A stretch of 64,000 nt of DNA from the IMG/VR virus record IMGVR_UViG_3300023117_001979; one strand, given 5' to 3'. The notes under the pieces are model-generated. The model was given only the letters and a program-made list of their open reading frames with translations. It was not told the DNA's origin and made no database searches. Made by a program: the position numbers and the translations under genes. Shown here in pieces: positions 623 through 45,427 of the stretch. The first letter of the stretch is position 1; each line of letters begins with the position of its first letter. This DNA comes from an uncultured virus (IMG/VR IMGVR_UViG_3300023117_001979) (taxonomy: Duplodnaviria > Heunggongvirae > Uroviricota > Caudoviricetes).

Positions 623-2173
623 ATGACAGTAACTGATGCGACGCAACAGACAAGCCAAAGTGCATTGTCTATGAACATTGAACACGCACAAGTAGTAGCC
701 AATACAGTTAGGAGTACACTTGGCCCGAAAGGACTAGACAAAATGCTTACCGATGCTGGTGGCCGTGTTACCATTACTAATGACGGTGCTACTATTCTTC
801 GTAATGTAAACTGGGTCTCACCAATTGCTAAGAAGATTGTTGAGGTTGCTCGTACCCAAGAAGAGCAGTGCTACGATGGGACGACTACGGCAATTATTTT
901 GACTGCTGAGTTGCTCAAGAAAGCAGAATTACTTCTTGAAAGCGGTGTTCATCCAACTACTATTGTTGAAGGTTATAGGACAGCAGCTTTGAAGAGTAAG
1001 GACTTCCTTACTGAGATGGTAATTGACCCTGATGAAGAAATGCTTCTTGCTATTGCAAAGACCGCTATGACCGGTAAAAGTGCAGAAGGTGAAAGGGATT
1101 TGTTGGCCAAACTTTGCTTAGAAGTCGTCGAAGCATCACGCCCTGAAGCAGTTCATATTATGACACGAACCGGCTCTCCTATTTCCGAATCATTTTCTCC
1201 TAACGGTATTGTCATCGGGCGACAAAAGTTTCATTCTGCTATGCCCACCGAGCTGACACATGTCAAAGTTGCACTTCTTGACGGCGGATTGGAATTGGAA
1301 GCCTTTGGGCAAGGAGTAAATTTGAACCTTGGCTCATATAGCGAGTCACTAGAATACCAAAAGGGCCGAAAAGAAGCCCTAAAGTCAATGGCTGACCATT
1401 TCATTAACTTGGGTGCAAACCTAGTCCTGGTAACGAAAAATATTGACCCATGGATTGCGGAGTACTTTGCTCGCCAAGGCGTTTTAGCTGCTCGTCGATG
1501 CGCTGCCTCTAACTTAGAAGCAGTTGCCCAAGCCACTGACGGTTTGATTGTATCAGGCTATGAAGATTTAGAAGAAAGCGACCTAGGTACTGCCGGTCGC
1601 CTTGAAGAGATTCTCCAAGAAGGCCAGCCACCATTTATGTTGCTTCACGATACTCCTAACAATGATGCCTCTTCTCTTGTTATTTGTGCGCCTACTGAAG
1701 AAGTAGCCAATGAAATCCGCCGAGCGATGGATGATGCTATGGGAGTAGTGTGGGTTGCTAAGAATGAAGGCAAAATTGTTCCTGGCGGTAGCGCTCCTCA
1801 AGTTGAAATGGCTAACCGGCTACGGACTTACGCTGCTTCTGTCGGTGGGCGTGAATCTTTGGCTGTCGAAGCGTTTGCTGATTCACTAGAAATTGTTCCT
1901 AGGACTCTTGCTGAAAATGCGGGCCTATCTCCTATTGACACCCTAATGGAGCTTAGGAAAGCACATAGCAACTCAGATGGAAAGACTTCTAGTATGAGTT
2001 ATGGGCTCAATGTATATACCGGGGAAGTTGTTGATATGCTCAAAGAGGGCGTGATTGAGCCCGAAAAGGTAGTCAGGCAGGCTATGGAGTCTGCTACTGA
2101 AACAGCAGTAATGGTTCTTCGCATTGATGATATTATTAGTGCAAAAGAACCCGAAATAGAAGATTTAGTGTGA
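623..2173 (+). CDS. ths: group II chaperonin (thermosome subunit)
   Basis: STLGPKGLDKML, TITNDGATIL, DGTTTA, VPGG, PRTLAENAGL, VIEP, ATETAVMVLRIDDII. Confidence 0.96.
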   Translation: MTVTDATQQTSQSALSMNIEHAQVVANTVRSTLGPKGLDKMLTDAGGRVTITNDGATILRNVNWVSPIAKKIVEVARTQEEQCYDGTTTAIILTAELLKKAELLLESGVHPTTIVEGYRTAALKSKDFLTEMVIDPDEEMLLAIAKTAMTGKSAEGERDLLAKLCLEVVEASRPEAVHIMTRTGSPISESFSPNGIVIGRQKFHSAMPTELTHVKVALLDGGLELEAFGQGVNLNLGSYSESLEYQKGRKEALKSMADHFINLGANLVLVTKNIDPWIAEYFARQGVLAARRCAASNLEAVAQATDGLIVSGYEDLEESDLGTAGRLEEILQEGQPPFMLLHDTPNNDASSLVICAPTEEVANEIRRAMDDAMGVVWVAKNEGKIVPGGSAPQVEMANRLRTYAASVGGRESLAVEAFADSLEIVPRTLAENAGLSPIDTLMELRKAHSNSDGKTSSMSYGLNVYTGEVVDMLKEGVIEPEKVVRQAMESATETAVMVLRIDDIISAKEPEIEDLV

Positions 2174-18215: not shown

Positions 18216-19139
18216 ATGGAAACCCCCCATTATAGGGAGAAAATCGCCATTATTGCTCGTACAAGCACCCTGAAGCAAGAGAAGGGGCTGGAATCTCAGC
18301 TTGTAGCACTCAACTATGCCCTCGAAGCCGGGCTTTACCAAGAATACGACCTAATCACCCCTCCACCGCTAGGAAAGGATGGAGAACGAAAAGGTACCTT
18401 TTGGGAAAGGTACCCTTCCATTGAGGACAGCGATTTGAAAACCATGTTTGGGCATGGGGGCCAAGCTTGGTGTGTTGAGGATGTGTCAGGTTCTGTTTTC
18501 CATGCTCACCCTATCTATCTTGCTTGTCTTGACTATTGTAGGGAGAACAATATTCCTAATATTCTGTTTGAGCACTCTGACCGCCACTCTCGTGACACTG
18601 AAATGATTCTATCAGAAATTCGTCAGCGAAAGGCGGAGGGCATTTACTTCCATTACCTAAACTTCGGAGGTATGGACTTGTCCACCCCGGCTGGAAGGAT
18701 GATGCTTACTATGGGGGCTGCCTTTGCAGAATACTACCGTAATGATTTGAAATCAAAAACGATTCGTGGTATGAAGAACCTTGAGGAAAAAGGCATTTGG
18801 GCGGGGTCTCCACCATATGGGCTACGAGTCATCACCCAAAAAGAGGACAAAGAAAACTATGGGAAGCTGCTTTACAACCCAGCAGAAATGCGTTTTATTC
18901 TGGCGCTCTATGACCGCATTCTTCAACGACCAGGCATTTCTTATCGCCAGTTATCAAAGTGGGCTAATGACGATGGGTGGCGGACACGACGAGGTAAAAA
19001 CTGGACAGCTATGGGAATTCGGCGCATTATGACTTTCATGCTACCCTGGAAAGAAAATGGGGAAGATGATGATAACTGCGGGAAGTACTTCCTAAAAGAA
19101 ATGAGGGAAAACCCAAACCTAGATGGAGATAACTCTTAA
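18216..19139 (+). CDS. serine recombinase (resolvase + recombinase domain)
   Basis: IIARTST..Q catalytic Ser motif, DRHSRD, GRMMLTMGAAFAEY, G.WAGSPPYG, TRRGKNWT. Confidence 0.9.
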   Translation: METPHYREKIAIIARTSTLKQEKGLESQLVALNYALEAGLYQEYDLITPPPLGKDGERKGTFWERYPSIEDSDLKTMFGHGGQAWCVEDVSGSVFHAHPIYLACLDYCRENNIPNILFEHSDRHSRDTEMILSEIRQRKAEGIYFHYLNFGGMDLSTPAGRMMLTMGAAFAEYYRNDLKSKTIRGMKNLEEKGIWAGSPPYGLRVITQKEDKENYGKLLYNPAEMRFILALYDRILQRPGISYRQLSKWANDDGWRTRRGKNWTAMGIRRIMTFMLPWKENGEDDDNCGKYFLKEMRENPNLDGDNS

Positions 19140-21992: not shown

Positions 21993-22397
21993 GTGCGGGG
22001 GTATCATCGAATGAGTGCTGTATTCCGACTAATGGACACCGTAATTGGGCGAAAGTGTGAGATTGAAGAATGCGTATGCGTTGCTGAGGAAAACGACCCC
22101 CGCTGCTATGACCATAGTGTTATGCGACTCATCGAGCCTTTGTTTGAGCACTTTGACGAACAATGTAGCTTTGGTGGAATAAATTGTACTGGAACCGCTA
22201 CCCACATGAATGAGCATGAGGTTAGCATGTGTGAAAACTGCTACAATGAATGGACCCGTTACCGGCGCATTCAGCGAGGTCGCCGCTATGAAGGTCGCAC
22301 TATCGGCCAGCTTGTTGGACCCCATAACGAATTGATAATGGAAGCACTGTGGACCCCAGTAGTGACATTAGTAGAAGAAGGAGATGAAACAGAATGA
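21993..22397 (+). CDS. Cys-rich hypothetical protein
   Basis: Multiple C/H ligands; overlaps the polB start. Confidence 0.55.
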   Translation: MRGYHRMSAVFRLMDTVIGRKCEIEECVCVAEENDPRCYDHSVMRLIEPLFEHFDEQCSFGGINCTGTATHMNEHEVSMCENCYNEWTRYRRIQRGRRYEGRTIGQLVGPHNELIMEALWTPVVTLVEEGDETE

Positions 22398-25135
22398 CGA
22401 ACATAGCAATTTGTGAGCAGAACCCAGGATATATGGGTCGAATGAACGATGGAAAAAGAGTAGCAGTAAGGTCGAGGGATGAACACGGCAACCGGAAGGT
22501 TGACTTCTATGAGGTCCCAGCGGAGTGCTACATTGATTTGAACAACTTCGCTGAGCGATACACTTGGGATGGTCAGAAGAGAGTTAAGTGCAACCCAGCT
22601 AAGGATGTTTTCGACCCTCTTTCGTTTCTTACACAGGACTGGCGTATGGACCGAGCAGGCATCATTGATGTTGAGCCAGGAAAGGGAAAGACCATTGAAA
22701 AGAAGCCTCTCGCTCGCATCACTTTCAATTCTCGTTCTGATTTGCGCAGGTTCCTAAAGGACTACACCCCTGTTTATGGCGCTGACCTTGCACAGGAGGA
22801 CATTTGCGCTATCAGGTATGAAACCGGAAACGAGGACTTTGAGCTACACAAGTGCTACTTTGATATTGAAGCTGTTCAGTTTAAGCGTGATGACCCACTT
22901 AAGGCAGAATGGTTGGTTGATTGGAAAAAAGAAATTTGGCACGACCAGCAAATGGTCAACTCTATTGTTGCTTACGATAACTGGTTGGACACTTACTTTG
23001 TCTTTGCCTGCCATCCTTCGTGGGATGAGGAAATCAACAGTGATACTGACGGGTCTCGACGCATTATCGAAAAGAAGCACAAGACTGAGAAAGCCATGCT
23101 TACCTCTTTTGCTGAATGGTTCTACAAAGCTGACTTCGATGTTATCACTGGATGGAACAGTGCGGGCTATGATATGTCTGTTCTTTACCACCGCATGGAG
23201 TCGCTTCGTGTGCCTCACTGCATGAATGGTGTTCACTTTGAGAACGGACTTATGCCTCGTGAAGTCTACGGTGGAGGTGCTATGTCTCCTTACGGTATCA
23301 TGGATGAGCCGTTTCACAAGGGTGGTCGTGAATACCTTTGGCAACAACAACCACTACGAGGGGTAGACCACCTTGACATGATGGTTGCATTCAAGCGTCT
23401 TTACAAAGACTCCACTAACAACGAATTGGTTTCTTCCCGTTTGGGTCGTGTTGCTCAATTCCTTGAATTGCGTGAAGGAAAGCTAGAATCTCCCGATTTC
23501 TATTCAAAAGACTATCACATTGGCTGGGAGGAATTCCGTAACTACAACATTCGGGATGTAGAATTGCTCGTGCAAATCGACGATGCCTGGAATGTAATCG
23601 GCTCTTACAAGACGGTGCAACAGCTAGTCGGTTGTCAGCTCCGCTCTACTTTCTATGCTACTGGACTTGCTCGTGTCATGTTCAACGAAGAAGCATACTG
23701 GAAGCAGCGAACCTATCCCTATGAGCATGAGTTTGAAGATGACGATGACGACCTTGAGGGTGCTATCGTTCTTGACCCCGAAGAATTGGACTCAGTCGGG
23801 CTACATGACTGGACTGTTATTCTTGACTTCGCCGGTCTATACCCCTCTATCATGTGTGCATACAACACATGTCATTCTTCTAAGGTGCGACCAGGAATGC
23901 CTCACTTAGATGATGATATGATAGGACATAATGGTGTTCGTTTCCGTAAGAACCCTGTTGGTGTTCTTCCCAAGATGGTTCTTCGTCTTGACGAGCAAAG
24001 GGATGAATACAAAGCGAAGCTGAAAGAAGCCGAAGCTGCTGGTGACAAGGTAGCAGCCCGAAAGTGGAACGCTATGCAGCTTTCAGTCAAGCGAATGAGG
24101 GCTTCTTTCTACGGAATCATGGCTTTCCCTAAGTTTTCCTGGTATGACCCTGATATTGCTAAGACCATCACTATGGGTGGTCGCAATGCACTTCTTTCTA
24201 TCAAGGCAAAGGCCGAAGAAGCAGGGTTCAAGGTTGTGTTCGGACACACTGACTCTATCTTCGTTACTATGCCTAAGGAGTGGACTCAGGAGAAGGTGTA
24301 TGAGGAATCTATCACCCTCGCTAAGCAATTGACTGACCATGTTCAAGCCCAATTACGGACTGACAAAGTCGTAGTTGAATTAGAGGCTATCATGGACAAA
24401 TATTTCATCGCTAAGAAAAATCGCTACGCTGGTCGTAAGGCGTGGGATGACAAGAAGGGTTTCCTCAACCTTGACTTCTCCGAAGACGGTTGGCCTGAGG
24501 TTTCCAGGAAAATGTCAGGCATGGAGGCGAAGCAAACCAACACTGCACCTGTTGGTCGTAACATTCAGTTGCAGACTTTGGGTCGTATTTTTAACGATGA
24601 ATCGCCAAGAGAAATCCAAGACAGCATTAAGAATCTTGTAGTTGATGTTCGAAATGGCAACATTGACGACAATGAATTAGTCGCAAATGCAAAGCTCAAC
24701 AAGTGGCTACCACATCATGTTGATTGGCACTGGGGCTATGAGAAAGAGTGTGATTGCGGAGAATGCCCCGAACCAAAAACTGGTGACCAGCGTGACGACG
24801 ATGATTCCTGCTATGCCAAGAAATTTTGGTCTGCTACCGCAGCATTGTTCCACAATGATGTTCTTTCTGACGACTCAAAGGGGTATGTGAAGCTCGATAA
24901 GGGTGATTCGTTTAGCTGGGTGCATGTTTGTGATGGGCCGACTGCGATTCCTAAGGATGGTTGGGTTGGTTTCTATGACCTAGAGCAAATTGCTGACTAT
25001 ACCCTGGATTACGCACTTTTGGCTGAGAAGCATGTAATCAAGAAGCTAGAGAACATCTACTTTGGTATGGGTTGGGACATTAACGAATTGTATGAAAAGA
25101 AGCGCTATTCTCTTGATGACTTCCTTTCAGCATAG
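22394..25135 (+). CDS. polB: family B DNA polymerase with 3'-5' exonuclease
   Basis: ExoI FDIE, ExoII GWNSAGYD, ExoIII YNIRDV; motif A DFAGLYPS, motif B K...SFYG, motif C GHTDS, KKNRY. Confidence 0.96.
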   Translation: MTNIAICEQNPGYMGRMNDGKRVAVRSRDEHGNRKVDFYEVPAECYIDLNNFAERYTWDGQKRVKCNPAKDVFDPLSFLTQDWRMDRAGIIDVEPGKGKTIEKKPLARITFNSRSDLRRFLKDYTPVYGADLAQEDICAIRYETGNEDFELHKCYFDIEAVQFKRDDPLKAEWLVDWKKEIWHDQQMVNSIVAYDNWLDTYFVFACHPSWDEEINSDTDGSRRIIEKKHKTEKAMLTSFAEWFYKADFDVITGWNSAGYDMSVLYHRMESLRVPHCMNGVHFENGLMPREVYGGGAMSPYGIMDEPFHKGGREYLWQQQPLRGVDHLDMMVAFKRLYKDSTNNELVSSRLGRVAQFLELREGKLESPDFYSKDYHIGWEEFRNYNIRDVELLVQIDDAWNVIGSYKTVQQLVGCQLRSTFYATGLARVMFNEEAYWKQRTYPYEHEFEDDDDDLEGAIVLDPEELDSVGLHDWTVILDFAGLYPSIMCAYNTCHSSKVRPGMPHLDDDMIGHNGVRFRKNPVGVLPKMVLRLDEQRDEYKAKLKEAEAAGDKVAARKWNAMQLSVKRMRASFYGIMAFPKFSWYDPDIAKTITMGGRNALLSIKAKAEEAGFKVVFGHTDSIFVTMPKEWTQEKVYEESITLAKQLTDHVQAQLRTDKVVVELEAIMDKYFIAKKNRYAGRKAWDDKKGFLNLDFSEDGWPEVSRKMSGMEAKQTNTAPVGRNIQLQTLGRIFNDESPREIQDSIKNLVVDVRNGNIDDNELVANAKLNKWLPHHVDWHWGYEKECDCGECPEPKTGDQRDDDDSCYAKKFWSATAALFHNDVLSDDSKGYVKLDKGDSFSWVHVCDGPTAIPKDGWVGFYDLEQIADYTLDYALLAEKHVIKKLENIYFGMGWDINELYEKKRYSLDDFLSA

Positions 25136-28100
25136 CGTTTTCCTATCTCTAGGTCTTTACCTGCGGTAATTGCTTCAACCATTCCATCTAGGTTGTCGAT
25201 AGTACCCATAATTGGGTGAACGCGTAGTGACTTTCCTGGGTCTTCTCCACCTATTCCACCTAGTAGTGAAGTAGAGTTAGCGACCATGTGTCCACTCTTT
25301 CCTAAGCCTGAAAGGTAACCTGTACTGCCCATATTATCAATCAAAGCATCAATGTAGCGAATGTCTAAGTCACCTAGCCCGGATTTACTATTCATCTGCT
25401 GGTTAAAAATTTCTTTAATACCCGCTAGAGCGGCTTCGAGACCAAAAGAATGAGCAATCCAAAAGGGGTCATTACACACGGTTAGGTACTCATCATAGTA
25501 CTCGCCAATTAACTCATATGCGTTCTCCATCATTGGGTTTGTTTTACCTGGCTTTGGCTTAGCGGGTCCTTTAATTACAATAGACCAACGCTCAGGACCA
25601 CCTGTTGGGTGAGCACCATGCTCACTAAATGCTCTTCCTCCGTTTATTAGGCCATGAATTTGATACTTGCCTAGTGACTCTTTCAATACAAGTAGGTATG
25701 AATCAATATCTAAGTATTCAGGAGTACCATGCGTTCTAACTCTTAGGCCCCCTTCTATTTCATTTACTGAAAACACTGGGCTATGACTGCTACCTTTGTA
25801 AGTCAAGTACTCTTTAACGAATTCCAAGTCCACTTCAAAGGTGTTTACTACTTCCATATCGAATACAATATCTATGGCTCGCTCATCAGATAGATACCTA
25901 AACACAGTCGCTATGTCATCTATGTAAAGTGTCGAACAGAAGTTAGCTAGCTTCTTAGCGTAATATTCATCATTGTATTCTTCTTTCAAAAAGTACTGCG
26001 TCACTGGTTGTTGAATGGCGGAGCGTGACAAATCTAGAATCTGAATAATACGGTCTGTTGTGGGCACTGTTCCTTTACCACCACCGTGAAACGCCCTAAG
26101 CCCAGCTTGTGTTACTGGTTCACCAACATTTGCAGCTCCTGTTGCACCAATCATTTCACCAGCGCGAGCTTTGCTTTCATTGTAATACTCGTAAGCGCGA
26201 GCAAAGTATTCAGCAGGGTTTTCAATTTCTCGCGCTTCGAATTCGGGGTCAATTTTTTCGCGCAGCCTTGACGAAATATTGAGGGGCAATCGTCCTAGCT
26301 TGGGAGTATTTTTGTACAGTGTTCCATCTTGACATGTGTCACATTCATCAAACAGTGTAATTCCATGCCTACACAGCTGTGACAAAAAGTGTGGCTGAAG
26401 TGAAAGTGAAAGTCCGTCTGAGTTATCGGGTCCTCGCGCATGGAATGGTTGAATCCCATCTTCACCAACTTGTAGCGACAAAACCTTGCCCAATCGCATA
26501 TTTACCAAATAGCCTCTATCGTCAATCATCAAGTTTTCAGATGCGCGCTTAAGTCGATGCTCAAGATAGCCCGACTTTTGAATCGCGCCCATTGATGATT
26601 CCATCGCGACGCGGCGGCCAGCGACAGACGCAAGGAAGTATTGTTCAGGAGAAAACCCAGTAGCATAAGAGTCCGGATTAAAGCCAAAAGCTTCTCCTGA
26701 GTAATCACCTTCTTTGAAGTGTGGCAGTAATCGACCTACCTTATTACCACTCATCAACCGGTTTCCACCTACTCTCACTTGCCCATATGCCCCTGACATT
26801 TGCTGAATGTTCAAATCACTAGCACGGGCCCCTGAAACAACTGCAATAGCCATTTGGTTTGCTGTACCTTGCAGCTCTTTGGTAAGTTTGATAATTTCAT
26901 CATCAAAGTCATTAGTGATATTTGCTACTTGCAATTCCATCCATGCAAGCGGGTCGTAAGTAAGCCAATGTCGGGAGTTTTCGGTGAAATAGTCATCAGG
27001 TAGGTTCTCTAGAGTCCTGTTAAAGAAAGCCTCAGTTATAACCCTAATTTTTTCATTCGCTTCGTCATAAAGTTGCTTCTTTTTCTCAATAAACTCAGGA
27101 GCGCTGAGCGATACATCCTCGATACCAATAGTATATCCGACATACAAATGAGCGGCGAAGAATAGACGATTTATGTGGTCAATGAAATCTGCTAGCATTC
27201 TAATGCCCAGCTCGTAATTAAAGTGATAAACAAAGGCAGCTCCTAGCACCATTGACCCGTTTTTGACACCCTTTGCATCAAGAGTACCATAGAGAAGCTT
27301 GCCGTTTTCTATTCTTGCTTCTGCTCCAGTTTTGTCTTTCCAAACACAATTAATTCCTTCGGGAATGAACATAGACACTACGGACTTGCCAGTGTAAAAC
27401 TTCTTGTAGTCAGGTTCGGGTAATGACTTGATGTAACTGAGGGTTCCTTCGTCATCTCTAGTGTACACTAGTCCGAGCATTTCAATGAGAGCCTTCTTCG
27501 AGAAGTAAACATACCCGTCTTTGTCGTAGCCGATTCCCCCTACTTTGTTGTAAGTACCATACGGCCCCTTGAACGACTTTTTGTCATCGTCTTCAAGCCG
27601 TTGATAGTCATTGTAAGAGATTTCTATTTCGTTGCCCTTCTTATCCTTGCCCCGATATACCAACTTGCTCTTGTTAGGGAAAGTAAGCAAGTAGGCACCT
27701 GATGTTTCGTCTTGGTCAGAGGCAATAGTAGGCCTACCATAGCGAGAGTGAATAATTTGCTTATTTACATCTAGAATATCTTTTGCTTCTTGGATAGCTT
27801 CGGGTGACTGTGGCACAAAGCAACGCATAGTATCGCCATCGTAGTCTGCGTTAAACGGCACACAAATAGTAGGGTTGAAACTAAATGCATGTTGTTTGAG
27901 CGGAACCACCTTGCCTGCCATTACATTCTGACGATGAAGAGCAGGGGCGCGGGTAAAAAGAATAATGTCGTGCTTTCTTAGCCCTCTATGAACAATATCG
28001 CCAATTTTGAGAGTGTCTGCTAAAATGGTGCGGAGGCTCTTTCCATACTCGTATCGATACTCTCGACGCGCCTGTTTGATTTCTTTTTCTTTACCTGCCT

Positions 28101-30111
28101 GGTCATCCCTACCACGATACTTGGCATTAATTCCTCTTAGAATCTCTTGATACCATACATTTTGTGCTTCAGGGTTTACCTGCCTCCCCAAAGAATCCAC
28201 TTCGAATGGGTCATAACGACTATTGGTTTCTTGTAATAGGCTAATTTTTCCTTTGCGAGCGCTCATCTTTTCAATATACTTGGCACCCCCAAAGTAGTTT
28301 TCAAAATCCCAACTATCGAGAGGTATTATTCCTTTTTTATCAGGTGGACAACCTTTCTTAACTGCTTCTCGCAAATCTTCGATATTTTCCTTTGTGACCC
28401 GCTCAGCAACAGTCATGCGAATACATGCTCCCATAGGAACACCGACTTCGTCTATTCTAAGCGAAGGGTTAGGAGTGATTACAGAATACATAGTATGCTC
28501 AGTGACTTTGGACTGGTTAATTCTTCGGATGTGGTTTTTCTTCTCCCCCGCTGGCTTAATGCGGTCATAAACGCCTTCTAGTGCTTCAGTTACTAGTCCA
28601 CTCCCGCCAAACTTTTGCTTTACAGCAGGTGTGCCAAACGGGCTTTGTGAAGTAAGAGCCTGAGTGCAGGCCTTGAACAAAGTACTCTCGCTACGAGCGA
28701 ATTTGGCTTGGTCCTCATACATGTCCAGGAGCTTCTGATTCACTCTTACAATGTTGATATACAGCTTGTCTAAGTCATTCATTTCTAAAGCACCATTAGG
28801 AGTTTCTTGTGGTGGGCGAACAGTGTTAGGTGCAATTGGAAATACATCCCAAAACAAGTAACTTGGGTGTGAGCGAGGTGCTCCTGTTAATTTGTCAACT
28901 TCAGTATTGAAGCTCAAAGCTAGAGCATGGTCGTTGGGGATTTTCTTCAAAGACTGGTAAACTACATCATATCGGTATACTTCTTTTCTTGGGAATTCAT
29001 CTTTTGCTCGTTCACCAGGCTTAGGAAAAAATTCTGCAGGCCGCCCAAATCCATATTGCATCTTAAACATGAGAATAGGGCTCTTTTCATCACAGTGCGG
29101 GCAGTGATTTACTTTCGTACTTAGGGGCGTCTTAACTGGGCCACCTTGGGCGATTTGATATGGCCCCAGGTCTCTTTTTGCTTCTCTGTAATAGTATTGG
29201 TAAGTTTCAGCAATAGACTTCCAAATAATGGCTGAGCCTTCCGGGCTAGTCATTTTGTTTTCATACATGACTTTCTTTGCTTGAGCAATTAATGGCTCTA
29301 AGTACTCGTCAGGCAAGACAACCTTGTGGCAATTTCGACATGTATATTTGAGAGTCTTTACTAAAGGCGAAGAATCAATATCACCGGTCAAGTAAAGGTA
29401 ATTAGGGACTGGGACTGCTAGCTTTATTCTTCCAAAGTGCCCTGGGCAGGAGTATTCCTTTGCCCCTTCTATGTTTGCAGTATGTCCACATGTGTAACAA
29501 GCATTACGCCCATGACTTCCAAGTCTTAAATCAGCTACCCCACCATGAATTGGTGCAGGTATGTCAGGAATCATCGTTTTACTTTGGCGCGGGGTTTCGT
29601 ATACTTCAGCATGGCGGATAACTCGGTCTCCACTTAGTAGCATAATTTCTTCAGGGCTCATCATATGATGATAGATTGCCCCTACTGCTTTTGATTCTTC
29701 ATGTAAGGTAGTGTTTGGATAAACTAGAAATCGAGCAGAAATTGGTCCTTCAATTACATAGCCTTCAAAATCAGTTTCAATCTGAACCCGGTCTGACACA
29801 TCTAGAATCTCAGTATATAGCCAATCTTCAGGTTCCGGGTCTCCGTTAAGGTAACCAGCTGTATCTTCAAAGGGCTTATTTGCTATTTTGCAGATAATTA
29901 GCGGCCCTACTTTACTTCGTAAGTTAGCGGCGTTTGGCGAAAGACGATACCACCGATATGCTTCACCTGAAGTCCTAGGAACCCATCGGATTGTGTCAAG
30001 ATTAAATTGAATGTATTTTTGGTTGTCTATCTCTTCTATTTCGTCTTTGCTAAAGAACCAATAAAACTCCTTAACTAGAGGAATTTCATTAGTGGTGTCT
30101 TGAATTACCAA
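25105..30111 (-). CDS. rpo1: DNA-directed RNA polymerase largest subunit (fused Rpo1N+Rpo1C / Rpb1-like)
   Basis: Clamp Zn sites CYTC...CPGHFG and CRNC...CPHC; RAPALHRQN; catalytic PFNADYDGD; SGARAS..NIQQM; bridge helix ...KSGYLEHRL; trigger loop GEPVTQAGLRAFHGGG. Confidence 0.95.
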   Translation of the reverse strand: MVIQDTTNEIPLVKEFYWFFSKDEIEEIDNQKYIQFNLDTIRWVPRTSGEAYRWYRLSPNAANLRSKVGPLIICKIANKPFEDTAGYLNGDPEPEDWLYTEILDVSDRVQIETDFEGYVIEGPISARFLVYPNTTLHEESKAVGAIYHHMMSPEEIMLLSGDRVIRHAEVYETPRQSKTMIPDIPAPIHGGVADLRLGSHGRNACYTCGHTANIEGAKEYSCPGHFGRIKLAVPVPNYLYLTGDIDSSPLVKTLKYTCRNCHKVVLPDEYLEPLIAQAKKVMYENKMTSPEGSAIIWKSIAETYQYYYREAKRDLGPYQIAQGGPVKTPLSTKVNHCPHCDEKSPILMFKMQYGFGRPAEFFPKPGERAKDEFPRKEVYRYDVVYQSLKKIPNDHALALSFNTEVDKLTGAPRSHPSYLFWDVFPIAPNTVRPPQETPNGALEMNDLDKLYINIVRVNQKLLDMYEDQAKFARSESTLFKACTQALTSQSPFGTPAVKQKFGGSGLVTEALEGVYDRIKPAGEKKNHIRRINQSKVTEHTMYSVITPNPSLRIDEVGVPMGACIRMTVAERVTKENIEDLREAVKKGCPPDKKGIIPLDSWDFENYFGGAKYIEKMSARKGKISLLQETNSRYDPFEVDSLGRQVNPEAQNVWYQEILRGINAKYRGRDDQAGKEKEIKQARREYRYEYGKSLRTILADTLKIGDIVHRGLRKHDIILFTRAPALHRQNVMAGKVVPLKQHAFSFNPTICVPFNADYDGDTMRCFVPQSPEAIQEAKDILDVNKQIIHSRYGRPTIASDQDETSGAYLLTFPNKSKLVYRGKDKKGNEIEISYNDYQRLEDDDKKSFKGPYGTYNKVGGIGYDKDGYVYFSKKALIEMLGLVYTRDDEGTLSYIKSLPEPDYKKFYTGKSVVSMFIPEGINCVWKDKTGAEARIENGKLLYGTLDAKGVKNGSMVLGAAFVYHFNYELGIRMLADFIDHINRLFFAAHLYVGYTIGIEDVSLSAPEFIEKKKQLYDEANEKIRVITEAFFNRTLENLPDDYFTENSRHWLTYDPLAWMELQVANITNDFDDEIIKLTKELQGTANQMAIAVVSGARASDLNIQQMSGAYGQVRVGGNRLMSGNKVGRLLPHFKEGDYSGEAFGFNPDSYATGFSPEQYFLASVAGRRVAMESSMGAIQKSGYLEHRLKRASENLMIDDRGYLVNMRLGKVLSLQVGEDGIQPFHARGPDNSDGLSLSLQPHFLSQLCRHGITLFDECDTCQDGTLYKNTPKLGRLPLNISSRLREKIDPEFEAREIENPAEYFARAYEYYNESKARAGEMIGATGAANVGEPVTQAGLRAFHGGGKGTVPTTDRIIQILDLSRSAIQQPVTQYFLKEEYNDEYYAKKLANFCSTLYIDDIATVFRYLSDERAIDIVFDMEVVNTFEVDLEFVKEYLTYKGSSHSPVFSVNEIEGGLRVRTHGTPEYLDIDSYLLVLKESLGKYQIHGLINGGRAFSEHGAHPTGGPERWSIVIKGPAKPKPGKTNPMMENAYELIGEYYDEYLTVCNDPFWIAHSFGLEAALAGIKEIFNQQMNSKSGLGDLDIRYIDALIDNMGSTGYLSGLGKSGHMVANSTSLLGGIGGEDPGKSLRVHPIMGTIDNLDGMVEAITAGKDLEIGKRYAERKSSRE

Positions 30112-30112
30112 A

Positions 30113-30550
30113 TCAACCCCTCGCTGCTGTATATGCTAGCCAATCCGCCATTTCATTTAACTCCGTGCCGACATGTGCCTTTACCCATTGGTACTGAGGC
30201 ACTCCATTTAGCTTATCTTCTAGCTTTCTTATTCTTGCTATTGCTTTAACTAAGTCGGGCTGCTTGATATTATAGTAGTCAGAAAGACCTTCAACTACCA
30301 TTTTAGAGTCACTGATGATTGTTATATGGACACTAGGGCCTAGATTTCTGGCTACTAAGTCCTCTAAAGCCAATTCGACTGCTAGGAATTCCGCCATATT
30401 ATTGGTAGTCACGCCGACATACTCTCCGTGTAGGTGAAGAATATTGCCAGTGATTTTTTCGACAATGACATAGCCAGCTCCGCATTCTCCTTTGCTATCA
30501 CGGTCACTGTCTTTGACGCAACTGCCGTCGGTCCAAACTTCATACTCCAT
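30113..30550 (-). CDS. rnhA: ribonuclease HI
   Basis: TDGSC, TNNMAE, SDSKMV, WVKAH, NEMADWLA. Confidence 0.93.
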   Translation of the reverse strand: MEYEVWTDGSCVKDSDRDSKGECGAGYVIVEKITGNILHLHGEYVGVTTNNMAEFLAVELALEDLVARNLGPSVHITIISDSKMVVEGLSDYYNIKQPDLVKAIARIRKLEDKLNGVPQYQWVKAHVGTELNEMADWLAYTAARG

Positions 30551-30817
30551 TCAAACACCCTTTATTACACGATACTTGACCTTTGTACGGGCTTCTTCTC
30601 TATCGCTATCTTCGGGGCTAAACTTACTTCGGACAACGGTTATCTTTACTACTGAGTCAATCGGCGTTTCTTCACCTTTCATTCGTAAGTGACTAAGCGC
30701 CGCGTCTTCATACATTAGGGCTGGCAGCTCTTCAATTTTAATTGAAAGAGCTTTCAAAACAGCATCTGCTTCTATGGGCGAAAGAACCTGGTGGTCGGGC
30801 ATCAAGTAGTGCATCAA
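30551..30817 (-). CDS. rpoH: RNA polymerase subunit H (Rpo5/Rpb5 C-terminal domain)
   Basis: HYLMPDHQVLS..E...L..L.I..EELP.L...D.A...VVKI...S...YRVI. Confidence 0.88.
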   Translation of the reverse strand: MMHYLMPDHQVLSPIEADAVLKALSIKIEELPALMYEDAALSHLRMKGEETPIDSVVKITVVRSKFSPEDSDREEARTKVKYRVIKGV

Positions 30818-31057
30818 CTAAGCGCAGGTACTTCCTCACCATGAATGTACTGCTCAATCTGCCCTATTTCATGACCAACTACTTTGGCACGATAGACAAT
30901 AAAAAGCGTTCCTAGGAAAATAAGAATATCACTGAAGACAAAACCAACTAGAATTGTCAATGACAAGTACAAAAAGCCCAAAATTGCTGCAACAACGAGA
31001 ATACGCTGACGAGACTTTAGGTCGTCTAACTCATAATGAATAAAGCTGGTATTGAAA

Positions 31058-31537
31058 TCACCAGTCTTCATCATTATCCCAGTCCCAGTCATCGTCGTCG
31101 TCGTCATCATCGTCGTCGTCATCGCTTTCTTCTTCGTCATCATCGAGACCGGCAAGAAGTCCATCTAAGTCATCGTCGTCATCGTCGTCGTCATCTGACA
31201 AAATGATAGCCTTTGCTTTCTTTGGCTTGTCTTCGCCAAGCTCTTCCCAATCAGGAATATTGTCATAGTCAAAGTCATCTTTCTCAGGAATCTTAAGCTC
31301 AGGACGCTTTTTCTTACCTTTAGACATAGCGGCTTGAACCATAGATGGCTTAGATTCTTCTCCATCCTCTTCATCTTCGGGCTCATCGAACTCGATGGCA
31401 CTTAGATTGAGGTCACTATTCTTTTTTAGAGCAAGAGTTGGTTCAACCCAGCTTTCTAGCTTTTTCATCGCTGATTCGTCATTCATAGCTTCAACTTCAA
31501 TAGTCAAGTAGTAGGTGAAAACCTGCTTTTCTGCCAT
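31058..31537 (-). CDS. protein with very acidic (poly-Asp) C-terminal tail
   Basis: 159 aa, two long Asp runs near the C-terminus. Confidence 0.7.
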   Translation of the reverse strand: MAEKQVFTYYLTIEVEAMNDESAMKKLESWVEPTLALKKNSDLNLSAIEFDEPEDEEDGEESKPSMVQAAMSKGKKKRPELKIPEKDDFDYDNIPDWEELGEDKPKKAKAIILSDDDDDDDDDLDGLLAGLDDDEEESDDDDDDDDDDDDWDWDNDEDW

Positions 31538-31584
31538 GAGTATGTATCAGCTTCATTCTGACCTTAAACCTAAGTATTGGTTTA

Positions 31585-31788
31585 ATGACTATGTATACTT
31601 TCACAAGCCTTATATGCACCGGGAAGATGCACATAGTAATGGGCACCGATGATGCCATGAGTGCTATTAGGGTTCGTAAGTACGATATTGACCGCCTAAA
31701 GCATTTTAAAATTAATAACGAGTCTATTTGGGAGACCTTGGCGAGGATTCTCAATGAATATCATCATAGCCAAGTTAACAAGGAGTAA
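31585..31788 (+). CDS. ribbon-helix-helix DNA-binding protein (start probably internal, MGTDD/MSAIR)
   Basis: SAIRVRKYDIDRLKHFK...ESIWETLARIL resembles archaeal RHH proteins. Confidence 0.6.
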   Translation: MTMYTFTSLICTGKMHIVMGTDDAMSAIRVRKYDIDRLKHFKINNESIWETLARILNEYHHSQVNKE

Positions 31789-31793
31789 TAGAA

Positions 31794-32105
31794 ATGGCAA
31801 AATTTGCGCGAACAGTGTCAAAAATCGAACAATGCTTTAGAGTTTATGAAGACTCCCTGGAAGTGGATGTTCTTTCCTTCCATCAAATTCGTGATTGGTA
31901 TAACGAGCAAACCAAGGATGGAATTACTTCTGCTCGCCTAATTAACCTCCTTCGCAAGCGTCCTCAGTTTGTTTGGCAACATACCGAGCGTAAAATTGGC
32001 TCAAATGAAACATTGACCTTTTGGTCTATGAACAAAGAAGTCAAGCTGCCTAACCCTGCAGATGGTTGGGTGGTTATTGAGCAGGCAGCTCCGCTATCGT
32101 GCTAG
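31794..32105 (+). CDS. putative winged-helix protein
   Basis: LSFHQIRDWYN..TK.G.TS.RLINLLRK.PQF. Confidence 0.6.
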   Translation: MAKFARTVSKIEQCFRVYEDSLEVDVLSFHQIRDWYNEQTKDGITSARLINLLRKRPQFVWQHTERKIGSNETLTFWSMNKEVKLPNPADGWVVIEQAAPLSC

Positions 32106-32135
32106 TAGTACTACCCTAAGAAGCGCTACAATATG
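32105..32135 (+). promoter_or_regulatory. bipartite element copy 1: GTAGTACTAC-N8-GCGCTACAATATG
   Basis: Identical architecture in 4 intergenic copies. Confidence 0.8.
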
Positions 32136-32180
32136 AAGCGAGGGAACTGCCCTCCTTCAAATATATTAGGAGGTAAAAAC

Positions 32181-32357
32181 ATGAATGAAGATTTTGTATT
32201 CGAAGGTGAAACTTACATTATCGTAGACAAAGTTCCGGAAAATGTTCAGCAAATGTGCCGTTATAGCACAGGAAGCGTGGACAACTATTTCATCGGAAAA
32301 AAGATGATTTTCTGGAAGTCTGCCGGTTGGAAGTTTTACACCACAACGAACCTGTGA
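32181..32357 (+). CDS. small hypothetical protein (MNEDF...)
   Basis: AGGAGGT RBS before ATG 32181. Confidence 0.6.
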   Translation: MNEDFVFEGETYIIVDKVPENVQQMCRYSTGSVDNYFIGKKMIFWKSAGWKFYTTTNL

Positions 32358-32439
32358 AATCTAACTCATCAGTTTGAACGCCAGACTAGCCACAAGGAGG
32401 GAGAAAAACCGGCTAGCAAAAGTGCGGTAAGCACAGGAT

Positions 32440-32682
32440 GTGAAGAAAATATCACAAAATGAAAAAACAAACGAAGAAGAGCTAGTTCCCTGTAAGGGGA
32501 TTATCTACATGTCAGTACAAGGCGGAAAGGATTTCTACGACCCATGCCCCCACAACAATAAGGTCCCAGTAGGGACTGAAAACGGGGGCGGAGAAACCTG
32601 TATCGAATGCAGGAAAGAAAACTCCCGTAGCTACATGAGCCGAACCCACATATCTGGCGGACGCCCAGTAGCACCTATTTGA
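32440..32682 (+). CDS. small Cys-containing hypothetical protein
   Basis: 80-aa ORF, C...C...CIEC. Confidence 0.5.
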   Translation: MKKISQNEKTNEEELVPCKGIIYMSVQGGKDFYDPCPHNNKVPVGTENGGGETCIECRKENSRSYMSRTHISGGRPVAPI

Positions 32683-32702
32683 AGGCACAAGAGCTCTTCT
32701 TT

Positions 32703-32779
32703 GTACCACATCCAGGTCACTGACCTGTCCAACCCGCCCCTGTGCGCCAAGGCTCGCAGGGGTGGCCAAGTGCGGTAAG
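32703..32779 (+). ncRNA. conserved three-way-junction RNA motif, copy A
   Basis: Homologous to 36780-36857, with a 10-bp stem of different sequence but the same pairing. Confidence 0.7.
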
Positions 32780-32796
32780 CACAAGCAAATGTCAAG

Positions 32797-32827
32797 GTAG
32801 TACTACCTTGGCGAGCGCTACAATATG
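32797..32827 (+). promoter_or_regulatory. bipartite element copy 2
   Basis: GTAGTACTAC cttggcga GCGCTACAATATG. Confidence 0.8.
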
Positions 32828-33608: not shown

Positions 33609-34250
33609 CTGCTTTGGCCTCTGCAACCGGTGAAGCGGACCGGAGGCCCCAAGACTTGGAATTAGGCTGTGGTAGCCAATCTTACATGTGAAAGCTGAGT
33701 CCGAGTAACCAACGGAACAATGAAGCTTTCAAGCAAGAAGCCGAATGCTTGCATTCGGCCTTCACATATCAGGAGGAAACCAAAAATTCTCCTGTATATA
33801 TGGGCACCAGGTGTATTCCTGGTGTACCGGGGGTCAGGTACATGTTTACCATGTCCTGGCTCCCAAGACCATATCAGTGAGTGGTGTAACTGATTGGAAG
33901 GTTGTTGGACAACCTGTATGGTATGCTAGCTTATGCTAGAAGTGCCTCCAACTAGAAGATTAAGTGCATTACGCACACACACAATTTACCACACTCGCCC
34001 GGACTCGATTTATCGAGTCTTTACATTATCTTGAGACTAAAATAGGGCTTAAGCCCGGCGAACCTATCACCGTAAGGATGGTGGGTAAAGTCGCACAGTA
34101 ATTTATTAGCTCTCTTCGGAGAGAAACAGAAATCCAGCTACCAGCCTCACGGCTGAGACTAATATACGCCCACATAAAGGGACCTCACCGGATAGAGCCG
34201 AGGGTCCTGTGGTGCGCGGAAGTTGGATGATAATGTAACTACAAAATATA

Positions 34251-34284
34251 CCAGGGTAGCGTTAAAACTGCCCTGGTTTTTTTT
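34251..34284 (+). terminator. hairpin + T8 terminator-like element
   Basis: CCAGGGTAG-cgttaaaa-CTGCCCTGG then TTTTTTTT. Confidence 0.8.
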
Positions 34285-34292
34285 GTATCAGT

Positions 34293-34301
34293 ATAAGCGT
34301 G
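34293..34301 (+). promoter_or_regulatory. ATAAGCGTG gene-start motif (first of about 27 ATAAG(C)GTG copies to 63946)
   Basis: Recurrent motif at gene starts in the right half of the window. Confidence 0.8.
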
Positions 34302-34526
34302 GACACTGGATTATTCAGGACCAATGTAGGTTTGACCTACTTCCGTCAAGCAAAGATGGAAAAACAACTTACAGACGAGCAGGTGCTTGAGCTGTACACA
34401 TCGATACTTCGTATCGAAGCCAACGCAATCCGCCAAATGGAAGAGATTGCTGGCACTGCCGACCAATGGCGGAAAGACCAGGCTGAGGCTAGTCATGCCT
34501 TGGCAAAACAACTCCGTGACCTCTAG
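34299..34526 (+). CDS. small coiled-coil hypothetical protein
   Basis: GTG start within the ATAAGCGTG motif. Confidence 0.6.
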   Translation: MDTGLFRTNVGLTYFRQAKMEKQLTDEQVLELYTSILRIEANAIRQMEEIAGTADQWRKDQAEASHALAKQLRDL

Positions 34527-34546
34527 TCGCGTGAATAAGTGTATCA

Positions 34547-45379: not shown

Positions 45380-45394
45380 TATATAAGTGTGAAA

Positions 45395-45425
45395 GTAGTA
45401 CTACTTTCCCAAGCGCTACAATATG
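45395..45425 (+). promoter_or_regulatory. bipartite element copy 3
   Basis: GTAGTACTAC tttcccaa GCGCTACAATATG. Confidence 0.8.
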
Positions 45426-45427
45426 AG

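What the first reader, a model, noticed from the sequence alone, without database searches (positions are those of the whole stretch)
25105..30817. Divergent fused Rpo1 with Rpo5, and RNase H in the position of rpoB
Seen: one 1668-aa ORF with both A' and A'' motifs (NADYDGD instead of NADFDGD, trigger-loop His retained), an N-terminal extension of roughly 130 aa and several insertions. Gene order is rpoH-rnhA-rpo1. Known: the archaeal operon is rpoH-rpoB-rpoA'-rpoA''; Rpo1 is split in Euryarchaeota/Thermoplasmatota but unsplit in eukaryotes and some archaea. Multisubunit RNAPs are typical of giant eukaryotic viruses and some jumbo phages, not of described archaeal viruses to my knowledge. Inference: a virus-specific archaeal-type RNAP; the second-largest subunit should be elsewhere in the genome or borrowed from the host.
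Basis: partly seen in the sequence, partly recalled or inferred. Interest (0 to 1): 0.86.

Follow-up and report, generated by a model that had tools for sequence, protein, structure and literature searches.

The report
Archaeal virus-like element's partial RNA polymerase
A large marine archaeal virus-like element carries its own largest RNA polymerase subunit and a small partner subunit but apparently no second-largest subunit, which suggests that it rebuilds its host's polymerase instead of bringing a whole one.

Summary
Window 25105-30111(-) is one 1668-aa ORF with Rpb1 domains 1-5, NADYDGD, a bridge helix and a trigger-loop His. RNase HI and an Rpb5-C/RpoH homologue abut it upstream; family B DNA polymerase converges on it downstream. 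This order holds in 48 of 49 (upstream) and 45 of 45 (downstream) related loci with enough flank.

The window is 64 kb of a 135.7-kb metagenome contig. Its thermosome, resolvase, PolB and RNAP A match the 'magrovirus group D' of Philosof et al. 2017, whose nature was left open. So an RNAP A gene here is already in print; I found no description of the fusion, the Rpo5 partner or the missing Rpo2.

No Rpo2 was found in a closed 140-kb relative, in three other records of 101-110 kb, or in 1.46 Mb of family DNA, by HMM, tblastn, motif and profile-profile tests. The window's own clade was seen only in part.

The Rpo1 family is monophyletic on a long stem outside the sampled archaeal clade, but an AU test does not reject sisterhood with Poseidoniales-like Rpo1 (p 0.235).

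Best model, inferred: Rpo1 and Rpo5 replace the host's A'/A'' and H on host Rpo2, giving an element-specific polymerase. A highly conserved ~420-nt structured RNA lies 3 kb away.

The parts
25105..30111 (-). Fused Rpo1 (A'+A'' in one 1668-aa protein). It has a ~140-aa conserved N-terminal extension, NADYDGD, a bridge helix, a trigger loop with His, clamp Zn motifs, and an extra C-x-H-x7-C-x2-C motif (1247-1260) at the A'/A'' junction.
   Evidence: Pfam Rpb1 domains 1-5. PDB best hit is archaeal Rpo1N at 3e-80. Alignment to host A' and A''. Motifs. Family invariants.
30113..30550 (-). Type 1 RNase H (145 aa), between rpo5 and rpo1 where cellular operons have rpoB.
   Evidence: Pfam PF00075 at 1.7e-17. 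PDB RNase H hits down to 1.5e-13. Found on the same strand within 1.2 kb upstream of rpo1 in 48 of 49 loci.
30551..30817 (-). Rpo5/RpoH homologue (88 aa), C-terminal Rpb5 domain only.
   Evidence: Pfam PF01191 at 1.3e-9, above the cut-off. The homologue in the closed relative G001 scores 1.7e-12. Upstream of rpo1 in 48 of 49 loci.
30814..31164 (-). Small predicted membrane protein of the same operon. Its listed 5' part overlaps the acidic tail of the upstream gene in another frame, so the true start is probably further in.
   Evidence: Homologues in 25 of 84 records. No significant Pfam match.
31058..31537 (-). First gene of the operon: a 159-aa protein with a folded N-terminal part and a long poly-Asp/Glu tail. 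Function unknown.
   Evidence: Homologues in 66 of 84 records, always directly upstream of rpo5. A profile search of the PDB gave only compositional matches.
31794..32105 (+). Divergently oriented conserved 103-aa protein. Function unknown.
   Evidence: Homologues in 63 of 84 records at the same place. Nothing in Pfam or the PDB.
22394..25135 (+). Family B DNA polymerase, convergent with rpo1 with a 31-nt overlap.
   Evidence: Pfam PF00136 at 2e-35 and PF03104. Convergent PolB within 600 nt in 45 of 45 loci with at least 3 kb of flank.
623..2173 (+). Archaeal-type group II chaperonin (thermosome subunit), a hallmark of 'magrovirus group D'.
   Evidence: Pfam PF00118 at 2.6e-137. Archaeal thermosomes score 290-405 bits against at most 255 for CCT. 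Identity to cellular Thermoplasmatota is 42-46%.
18216..19139 (+). Serine recombinase/resolvase, another group D hallmark.
   Evidence: Pfam PF00239 at 1.5e-18. Conserved in 5 of 5 long records.
33887..34310 (+). Conserved structured non-coding RNA candidate of about 420 nt, ending in a GC hairpin plus a T8 run. It lies in a 1.85-kb ORF-free stretch.
   Evidence: DNA identity to relatives is 81-91%. RNAalifold gives 119 pairs, 14 with compensatory changes. No Rfam match. RNA-library contigs have depth 597-1350 here.

Best explanation
The locus is the conserved transcription module of a ~135-140 kb marine archaeal virus-like element of the kind called 'magrovirus group D'. The module is one tightly packed operon: an acidic protein, a small membrane protein, Rpo5/RpoH, RNase HI and a fused Rpo1. 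It converges on the element's PolB gene.

Rpo1 keeps all sequence features of an active largest subunit. The element encodes no second-largest subunit and no other polymerase subunit.

The most likely mechanism is inferred, not shown. Rpo1 and Rpo5 form the 'Rpo1 sub-assembly' and dock onto the host's Rpo2 and its Rpo3/10/11/12 platform. They displace host A'/A'' and H and so create a chimeric polymerase dedicated to the element. Such an enzyme could, for instance, resist whatever the element does to host transcription, or respond to its own factors.

The gene order looks like a captured cellular rpoH-rpoB-rpoA'-rpoA'' operon in which rpoB was lost and replaced by rnh, and A'/A'' were fused.

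The confidence given (0.45) is for the subunit-swap mechanism. That the locus is a group D-type Rpo5-RNase H-Rpo1 module I hold at about 0.9.
For: Shown:
- Domain content and motifs of Rpo1.
- 54 of 54 full-length family members keep NAD[YF]DGD, 46 with Y and 8 with F.
- The Rpo5-RNaseH-Rpo1 order holds in 48 of 49 loci and convergent PolB in 45 of 45, across clades whose Rpo1 proteins are only 30% identical.
- A cellular MAG shows the canonical rpoH-rpoB-rpoA'-rpoA'' operon for comparison.

Rpo2 was not found in any of these tests:
- PF00562 in six frames found nothing in a closed (55-nt end overlap, CheckV 100%) 140,336-bp relative, in records of 110 and 105.5 kb, or on the family's 101-kb contig in a bacterial MAG. 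That MAG's only hit was its own bacterial gene on another contig. All 14 control genomes were positive.
- Three further records of 46-65 kb had no match.
- Pfam on the closed genome's ORFs of at least 60 aa gave no Rpb2 domain.
- tblastn with a cellular Rpo2 against 1.46 Mb of family DNA gave no hit better than E 2.7, while Rpo1N hit 86 subjects.
- The GDKFASRHGQKG-type motif is absent from both the window and the closed genome.
- hhalign of an Rpo2 domain 6-7 profile against 115 ORF clusters gave a best probability of 25.9%.
- RpoN and RpoP were not found either.

RNA-library contigs with 0 mismatches lie on rpo1.

From recalled knowledge: Rpb5 belongs to the Rpb1 assembly intermediate, and plant Pol IV/V are built by swapping paralogous largest and Rpb5-type subunits.
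Against: - No binding, assembly or activity was tested.
- The closed genome without Rpo2 belongs to a distant clade (Rpo1 30% identical). In the window's own clade I saw only 64 of 135.7 kb, plus a 36-kb contig and one more contig of a relative.
- The element's Rpo1 is only 25-40% identical to the putative host's in local stretches. That is a lot of divergence for a protein that must fit a conserved host Rpo2.
- The profile tests used shallow alignments of 1-5 sequences, and several conserved proteins of 900-2200 aa have no assigned fold.
- The host is not established. Co-binning with a euryarchaeal MAG and archaeal-type genes are weak evidence. The thermosome is about equally distant (42-46%) from all sampled Thermoplasmatota.
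- RNA-library contigs may contain DNA, so expression of rpo1 is not proven.
Confidence: 0.45

Rival explanations
1. The element has a complete polymerase of its own. A second-largest subunit exists but is too diverged or too split to be recognised, as in phiKZ-type or crAss-type phage polymerases, or it lies in parts I could not read.
For: - About 85% of the ORFs have no family match.
- Several conserved proteins of 900-2200 aa are unassigned.
- 72 kb of the window's contig could not be read.
- The hhalign profiles were shallow.
Against: Rpo1 and Rpo5 are easily recognised (E 1e-80 to archaeal structures), so a co-evolving partner would be expected to be recognisable too. All four kinds of test were negative on a closed genome. 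Even a loosened form of the basic motif of the second barrel was absent from the closed genome; it matched once in the window, in an ORF-free stretch.
Confidence: 0.2
2. The module serves replication rather than gene expression. A polymerase containing this Rpo1 makes transcripts at the origin, RNase H trims them into primers for the neighbouring PolB, or the RNase H clears R-loops. This is the logic of ColE1 and mitochondrial priming.
For: RNase H sits inside the operon in 48 of 49 loci, and PolB converges on it in 45 of 45.
Against: The closed relative has two archaeo-eukaryotic primases and an MCM helicase, so priming is otherwise provided for. This model still needs a second large subunit. 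It is compatible with the best explanation rather than exclusive of it.
Confidence: 0.12
3. Rpo1 and Rpo5 act as a decoy or regulator. They soak up host subunits or factors to shut off host transcription and do not polymerise RNA themselves.
For: No partner subunit is encoded. Archaeal viruses are known to target host RNAP with inhibitors (abstract of PMC9501531, seen in the listing).
Against: A decoy would not need its catalytic residues. Yet 54 of 54 members keep the Asp triad, and the bridge helix and trigger-loop His are kept by most. A 1668-aa protein is also a costly decoy.
Confidence: 0.08
4. It is not an archaeal element at all. It is a virus of a marine eukaryote, or a piece of an unknown cell's genome.
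For: - Rpo1 is unsplit, as in eukaryotes and giant viruses.
- The family lies outside the archaeal clade in both trees.
- SAP, GATA, SWIB and a weak Arf-like match occur.
Against: - The thermosome is of archaeal type, and there is an Rpb5-C-only RpoH.
- Coding density is 90-91%, and the operon genes abut or overlap.
- A relative is binned with a euryarchaeal MAG, and another member is named 'Poseidoniales archaeon' by its source.
- The closed 140-kb map has no tRNA, rRNA or ribosomal protein genes.
- Unsplit Rpo1 also occurs in Bathyarchaeota and Korarchaeota.
Confidence: 0.06

Closest known systems
'Magrovirus group D' (Philosof et al. 2017, PMC5434244; Xu et al. 2023, PMC10160649)
   Same: [quoted passage not shown] No recognised capsid block. 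Marine or brackish origin.
   Different: The passages I saw give one sentence on the polymerase. They do not mention the A'/A'' fusion, the Rpo5 partner, the RNase H, the conserved operon, the lack of Rpo2 in a closed genome, the ~140-kb closed map or the structured RNA. I read passages only, not the supplements.
Cellular archaeal rpoH-rpoB-rpoA'-rpoA'' operon
   Same: rpoH lies upstream of rpoA on the same strand. The Rpo1 domain order, catalytic motif and Zn motifs match.
   Different: rpoB is missing and a 145-aa RNase H stands in its place. A' and A'' are fused. There is a ~140-aa N-terminal extension and family-specific inserts. Identity is 25-40% in local stretches.
Multisubunit RNAPs of giant viruses (Nucleocytoviricota) and of jumbo or mReC phages (Weinheimer and Aylward 2020, PMC7481178)
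   Same: A mobile element carries its own homologue of the largest RNAP subunit, and that homologue forms a deep separate clade.
   Different: Those viruses encode both large subunits. The mReC enzymes group with Bacteria. Here only Rpo1 and Rpo5 are present, and they are of archaeal/eukaryotic type.
Plant Pol IV / Pol V (recalled, not checked here)
   Same: A specialised polymerase is made by exchanging the largest subunit, and in Pol V an Rpb5-type subunit, while sharing the other subunits.
   Different: That is a cellular paralogue system that also has its own second-largest subunit. It is offered only as an analogy for subunit exchange.

Membership tests
Largest subunit of multisubunit RNAP (Rpo1/Rpb1/beta') | Rpb1 domains 1-5 in order | tested here: met
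   All five Pfam domains score above their cut-offs. PDB best hit is archaeal Rpo1N at 3e-80.
Largest subunit of multisubunit RNAP (Rpo1/Rpb1/beta') | Catalytic NADFDGD Asp triad, bridge helix and trigger loop | tested here: met
   NADYDGD at 754-760. All 54 full-length members keep NAD[YF]DGD. The trigger-loop regex with FH matched 38 of 54. The bridge helix is recognisable but diverged. Residue roles are recalled knowledge.
Largest subunit of multisubunit RNAP (Rpo1/Rpb1/beta') | Works with a co-encoded or co-resident second-largest subunit (Rpo2) | tested here: not met
   No Rpo2 was found in the element's relatives. A host Rpo2 exists in a MAG that co-bins a relative, but its use by the element is inferred.
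Archaeal rpoH-rpoB-rpoA operon | rpoB between rpoH and rpoA; A' and A'' as separate genes in Euryarchaeota and Thermoplasmatota | tested here: not met
   The order here is rpo5-rnh-rpo1 with one fused ORF. The canonical operon was seen in the MAG G005.
Rpo5/RpoH (Rpb5 C-terminal domain) | Pfam PF01191 above the gathering score | tested here: met
   38.1 bits against 23.5. The relative's copy scores 47.4 bits.
RNase H type 1 | PF00075 match and the four acidic active-site residues | tested here: met
   PF00075 scores 64.3 bits. D8, E54, D81 and D136 stand in the expected motifs. E54, D81 and D136 align to acidic residues of 3u3g. The residue roles are recalled.
Magrovirus group D | PolB + thermosome + resolvase + RNAP A of archaeal type, with no recognised morphogenetic block | tested here: met
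   All four genes are in the window. No capsid, portal or terminase match in Pfam or PHROGs. The definition is taken from the passage seen. I built no PolB tree.
Tailed viruses (Caudoviricetes) | HK97-fold capsid protein, portal, large terminase | tested here: inconclusive
   None was recognised by Pfam or PHROGs in the window or the closed relative. The one hint is a Peptidase_G2/IMC fibre-type C-terminus at window 13-279 (3.2e-14).
Jelly-roll capsid viruses with FtsK/HerA-type packaging ATPase | Jelly-roll major capsid protein plus a small P-loop ATPase in one conserved block | tested here: inconclusive
   A 242-aa ATPase gives weak AAA_22, DUF87 and TraG matches. The most conserved 328-aa protein was modelled at pLDDT 77.3. 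Its best match is Z 4.9 to the SPV1 capsid protein, followed by many jelly-roll capsids at Z 3-4. Foldseek found nothing at E <= 0.001.

The most novel reading that the evidence does not exclude
A large archaeal virus-like element takes over transcription by subunit replacement. It supplies only the Rpo1+Rpo5 sub-assembly, which docks onto host Rpo2 and the assembly platform to make a chimeric, element-specific RNA polymerase. I know of no virus or plasmid described as doing this. The Rpo1 lineage would also be old: it has a long stem and lies outside the sampled Archaea, Eukarya and giant-virus set in the free trees. The abundant structured RNA next to the module could be part of the same takeover.
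Probability: 0.4. Interest if true: 0.9.

Novelty: new variant of a known kind. Interest (0 to 1): 0.72.

Why it matters
A review abstract states that archaeal viruses encode no RNA polymerase of their own and depend wholly on the host enzyme (PMC5569661, listing). This element family is abundant in marine metagenomes. There are 59 Rpo1 clusters at 90% identity and 253 clusters of its most conserved protein.

A conserved Rpo1+Rpo5 pair without Rpo2 would be the first case of a mobile element re-equipping a host multisubunit polymerase with its own catalytic subunit. That makes a concrete question testable by reconstitution: can an archaeal RNAP core accept a foreign largest subunit?

It also bears on how giant viruses and eukaryotic Pol I-V acquired distinct largest subunits, and on what 'magrovirus group D' is.

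Tried and rejected
- No whole genome is held for the window. The window's full contig and other metagenome records are not held for whole-record search, so 72 kb of the contig stayed unread.
- The first IMG/VR scan with the single protein found nothing. The alignment found 8 loci.
- The GTDB genome scan gave only 2 family members among 80 loci; the rest were bacterial beta'.
- The 'shorter' protein search returned mostly fragments.
- P0001 was too long for the representative search. Residues 130-1230 were sent instead.

Leads on unassigned proteins that gave nothing:
- ESM Atlas on a 1118-aa ORF of the relative gave only weak phage-fibre-like leads (0.87).
- ESM Atlas on the Rpo1 N-terminal extension gave nothing (0.76).
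- Profiles of ORF103 and ORF159 against the PDB gave nothing usable.

Structure:
- A model of the 328-aa protein from 3 sequences was useless (pLDDT 30.8).
- With 66 sequences it was usable, but fold searches were inconclusive.

Trees:
- MAFFT --auto and the C20 mixture tree did not finish. LG+G4 was used instead.
- Two rows of the 202-row tree (L190, L198) are probably not Rpo1 and sit on a 2.3-long branch. They were left out of the 74-row tree.
- An insertion shared with Poseidoniales-like Rpo1 was looked for. The two inserts lie about 10 residues apart and are unrelated, so they give no shared derived character.

Host and Rpo2:
- The thermosome gave no host signal beyond 'archaeal'.
- The 328-aa protein is not in the MAG G005, so that MAG holds only part of an element.
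- A scan of IMG/VR with an Rpo2 profile found 565 relatives. The 80 listed are on other contigs, mostly giant-virus bins. 485 were not listed, so this says little.

Other:
- A first hhalign script timed out.
- No earlier findings of this scan bear on the window.
- Complex prediction was not used. A pass for textbook pairs would not have changed my odds.
Full report
**1. What is there**

The minus strand of window 25105-31537 carries a tightly packed gene row. Its genes, in order of transcription, are:
- a 159-aa protein with a long poly-Asp/Glu tail (31058-31537);
- a small hydrophobic protein (30814-31164);
- an 88-aa Rpb5-C/RpoH homologue (30551-30817; PF01191, 1.3e-9);
- a 145-aa type 1 RNase H (30113-30550; PF00075, 1.7e-17);
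- a 1668-aa protein with Rpb1 domains 1 to 5 (25105-30111).

The rnh start abuts the rpo5 stop. One base separates the rnh stop from the rpo1 start. The 3' end of rpo1 overlaps a convergent family B DNA polymerase gene (22394-25135) by 31 nt.

Against solved structures, the best matches of the large protein are archaeal Rpo1N chains (3e-80), then eukaryotic Pol II, III and I, then bacterial beta'.

I compared it with a canonical operon in an archaeal MAG: rpoH 208 aa, rpoB 1240 aa, rpoA' 1034 aa, rpoA'' 526 aa. Residues 205-1227 match A' and residues 1301-1657 match A''. The protein is a true A'+A'' fusion with about 140 extra residues at the N-terminus.

It has NADYDGD at 754-760, a recognisable though diverged bridge helix, and a trigger loop with Leu and His kept. 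The clamp Zn motifs are invariant in the family, and so is an additional Cys/His motif at the junction. An insertion of 31-162 aa sits in domain 2, where cellular proteins have about 25 residues.

**2. What the contig is**

The window is part of a metagenome contig of 135,676 bp (L010, 100% identity). No whole genome is held for it.

The window has no tRNA and no Rfam match. Coding density is about 90%. Few ORFs have a family match:
- an archaeal-type thermosome subunit;
- a serine recombinase;
- GmrSD and PD-(D/E)XK nucleases;
- an AAA ATPase;
- SAP and GATA domains.

[quoted passage not shown] 2017 list for their tentative 'magrovirus group D'. [quoted passage not shown]

Two later papers repeat that group D lacks a capsid gene. 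One adds that it is enriched in the cellular size fraction and may be plasmid-like (passages seen). Searches for more on its polymerase found nothing. I did not see any supplements.

**3. The family**

The protein database holds 59 clusters of near-full-length or partial relatives (28-89% identity, E <= 1e-156). They sit on marine contigs whose longest lengths cluster at 117-144 kb. The next hit is eukaryotic Rpb1 at 6e-61.

In 84 related records the neighbours recur: Rpo5 in 69, RNase H in 72, PolB in 60, the acidic protein in 66 and the divergent 103-aa protein in 63. Many of these records are fragments.

Counting only loci with enough flank gives a sharper picture:
- RNase H and Rpo5 both lie just upstream of rpo1 in 48 of 49.
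- PolB converges on rpo1 in 45 of 45.

All 54 full-length members keep NAD[YF]DGD. The module is therefore old within the family and under purifying selection.

**4. The missing Rpo2**

One IMG/VR relative (G001, 140,336 bp) is classed as having direct terminal repeats and as 100% complete. Its last 55 nt equal its first 55 nt, so the map closes. It shares 18 ORFs in the same order with the window, although its Rpo1 is only 30% identical.

The tests for Rpo2 were all negative:
- **Six-frame HMM.** PF00562 (Rpb2 domain 6) gave no candidate in G001, in two further records of 110 and 105.5 kb, or on the family's 101-kb contig in a bacterial MAG. That MAG's only hit was its own bacterial rpoB on another contig. 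All 14 control genomes were positive. Three more partial records were also negative.
- **Pfam on ORFs.** The ORFs of at least 60 aa of G001 show Rpb5_C, two RNase H, PolB, MCM, two AEP primases, thermosome, resolvase, SWIB and others, but no Rpb2 domain and no TBP, TFB or other RNAP subunit.
- **Small subunits.** RpoN and RpoP models found nothing in G001 or G002.
- **tblastn.** The MAG's Rpo2 against 1.46 Mb of family DNA gave nothing better than E 2.7. Its Rpo1N hit 86 subjects.
- **Motif.** The universal GDKFASRHGQKG-type motif is absent.
- **Profile-profile.** An Rpo2 domain 6-7 profile against 115 ORF clusters of at least 200 aa gave at most 25.9% probability over 40 columns.

There are limits to this. 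The closed genome is from a distant clade. In the window's own clade I saw only this window, a 36-kb contig and one further contig. The profiles were shallow. Large conserved proteins remain unassigned.

**5. Origin**

Two trees were built on the A'-homologous part:
- FastTree, 202 rows by 782 columns.
- IQ-TREE LG+G4, 74 rows by 784 columns.

In both, the family is one clade with full support on a stem of 0.8-0.9. It lies outside a fully supported clade of all sampled archaeal sequences. That clade includes 28 Thermoplasmatota and sequences that their sources name Bathyarchaeota, Korarchaeota and Nanosalina. The family also lies outside the Pol II-like and Pol III-like groups.

No bacterial outgroup was used. 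The site-heterogeneous model did not finish, and long-branch effects are likely. An AU test does not reject a tree that joins the family with the Poseidoniales-like sequences (delta lnL 28.5, p 0.235). The data therefore exclude a recent capture but do not decide between an ancient separate lineage and a fast-evolving derivative of a host gene. No shared insertion supports the latter.

**6. Virus or plasmid**

Nothing decisive was found. The hints for a particle are:
- The window begins with the C-terminal end of a protein bearing a Peptidase_G2/IMC autoproteolytic domain of the kind found on phage fibres and spikes (3.2e-14).
- Three long records share a conserved block with a small HerA/FtsK-like P-loop ATPase next to the most conserved protein of the family. 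That protein is 328 aa, 59-61% identical between clades, and has 253 database clusters, all unnamed.
- A model of that protein (pLDDT 77.3, pTM 0.75) is a beta-sandwich. Its best structural match is the capsid protein of Sulfolobus polyhedral virus 1, at only Z 4.9, followed by many jelly-roll capsid proteins at Z 3-4. Foldseek gives nothing at E <= 0.001.

This is a lead, not evidence.

**7. Host**

Evidence for an archaeal host is indirect:
- The thermosome is archaeal in type (archaeal chains 290-405 bits, CCT at most 255).
- RpoH has only the Rpb5 C-terminal domain.
- MCM and archaeo-eukaryotic primases are present.
- A 70%-identical relative, and an 89%-identical thermosome, lie on two contigs of a euryarchaeal MAG that also has its own split rpoA.
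- Another member is labelled 'Poseidoniales archaeon' by its source, though others are labelled Flavobacteriales or 'bacterium'.

The thermosome is 42-46% identical to those of all sampled Thermoplasmatota, so it points to no particular host.

**8. Expression**

Of 24 listed public runs that hold the stretch, 6 are RNA libraries. Contigs from four of them were laid on 25105-34600 with 0 mismatches.
- Pieces on rpo1 have depth 3-12.
- Pieces on 31.7-34.3 kb have depth 185-1350.

Contig depth is a crude measure, and DNA can be present in RNA libraries. Transcription of rpo1 is therefore not proven. The hundred-fold contrast within single runs does argue that the 31.7-34.3-kb region is abundant as RNA.

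**9. Mechanism**

An Rpo1 cannot polymerise alone, because the active centre lies between the barrels of the two large subunits (established knowledge). Three facts are shown:
- Rpo1 is conserved and catalytically intact in sequence.
- It is always paired with Rpo5.
- No Rpo2 or platform subunit was found in a closed genome.

The simplest reading is that Rpo1 and Rpo5 join host Rpo2 and the host's small subunits. Rpb5 belongs to the Rpb1 assembly intermediate in eukaryotes, and plant Pol IV/V show that exchanging the largest and an Rpb5-type subunit makes a specialised enzyme (both recalled). The gene order reads like a cellular rpoH-rpoB-rpoA operon from which rpoB was lost. All steps from 'encodes' to 'assembles with host subunits' are inference. 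I put this model at about 0.45.

The role of RNase H inside the operon is open. R-loop removal, primer processing for the adjacent PolB, or simple co-regulation are all possible.

**10. Verdict**

The polymerase gene of this element type was already mentioned in print in 2017. The fused architecture, the conserved Rpo5-RNase H-Rpo1 operon, the apparent absence of Rpo2 in a closed genome, and the neighbouring abundant structured RNA are, as far as my searches reach, undescribed.

Noticed in passing
window 33887-34310 (+), within the ORF-free stretch 32700-34550: A ~420-nt segment is 81-91% identical at DNA level in relatives whose Rpo1 proteins are about 70% identical. RNAalifold on 7 sequences gives 119 pairs, 14 with compensatory changes. 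There are UUCG-type loops, G-U pairs that fit only the + strand, and a terminal GC hairpin plus T8. No Rfam match. RNA-library contigs over 33680-34237 have depth 597-1350, against 3-12 on rpo1. It is likely a novel abundant structured RNA of the element.
   Followed up: partly
window 32766-32840, 45385-45432, 45929-45967: A 40-70-nt motif is repeated in the ORF-free stretches of the window and is shared with relatives (80-92% identity). It may be a promoter or regulatory repeat.
   Followed up: no
window 45380-47500 and 48340-50260: Two further ~2-kb stretches have no convincing ORF in an otherwise 90% coding window. The second has a 138-nt imperfect inverted repeat at 48402-48538.
   Followed up: no
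window 13-279 (+): This is the C-terminal end of a protein that runs off the window start. It has a Peptidase_G2/IMC autoproteolytic domain (PF11962, 3.2e-14), as on phage tail fibres and spikes. It hints at a virion fibre.
   Followed up: partly
G001 (L164:3204-4190, + strand) and homologues in G002 and G004 C22; outside the window: A 328-aa protein is the most conserved protein of the family (59-61% identity between clades, 253 database clusters, all unnamed). Its model is a beta-sandwich with weak likeness to jelly-roll capsid proteins (best Z 4.9, SPV1). It sits in a conserved block with a small HerA/FtsK-like ATPase and is a possible capsid protein.
   Followed up: partly
window 15746-17479 (-): A GmrSD-type (DUF262/DUF1524) restriction endonuclease homologue of 577 aa lies on the element. 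It may be a defence or counter-defence gene.
   Followed up: no
window 31058-31537 (-): The first gene of the rpo operon ends in about 60 residues of almost pure Asp/Glu and is conserved in 66 of 84 records. The tail could mimic nucleic acid. RNA contigs show length variants in this repeat at 31088-31192.
   Followed up: partly
window 57644-58435 (+), 34547-36763 (+), 3280-4014 (+): Domains more usual in eukaryotes occur: a GATA zinc finger (8.9e-8), SAP (6e-6) and a marginal Arf-like GTPase match (4.7e-5). The closed relative also has SWIB.
   Followed up: no
P0195 (1355 aa): A single unnamed protein on a 4.3-kb contig branches between the family and all other Rpo1/Rpb1 sequences, on a 1.2-long branch, in both trees. 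It could be a further deep lineage or a long-branch artefact.
   Followed up: no
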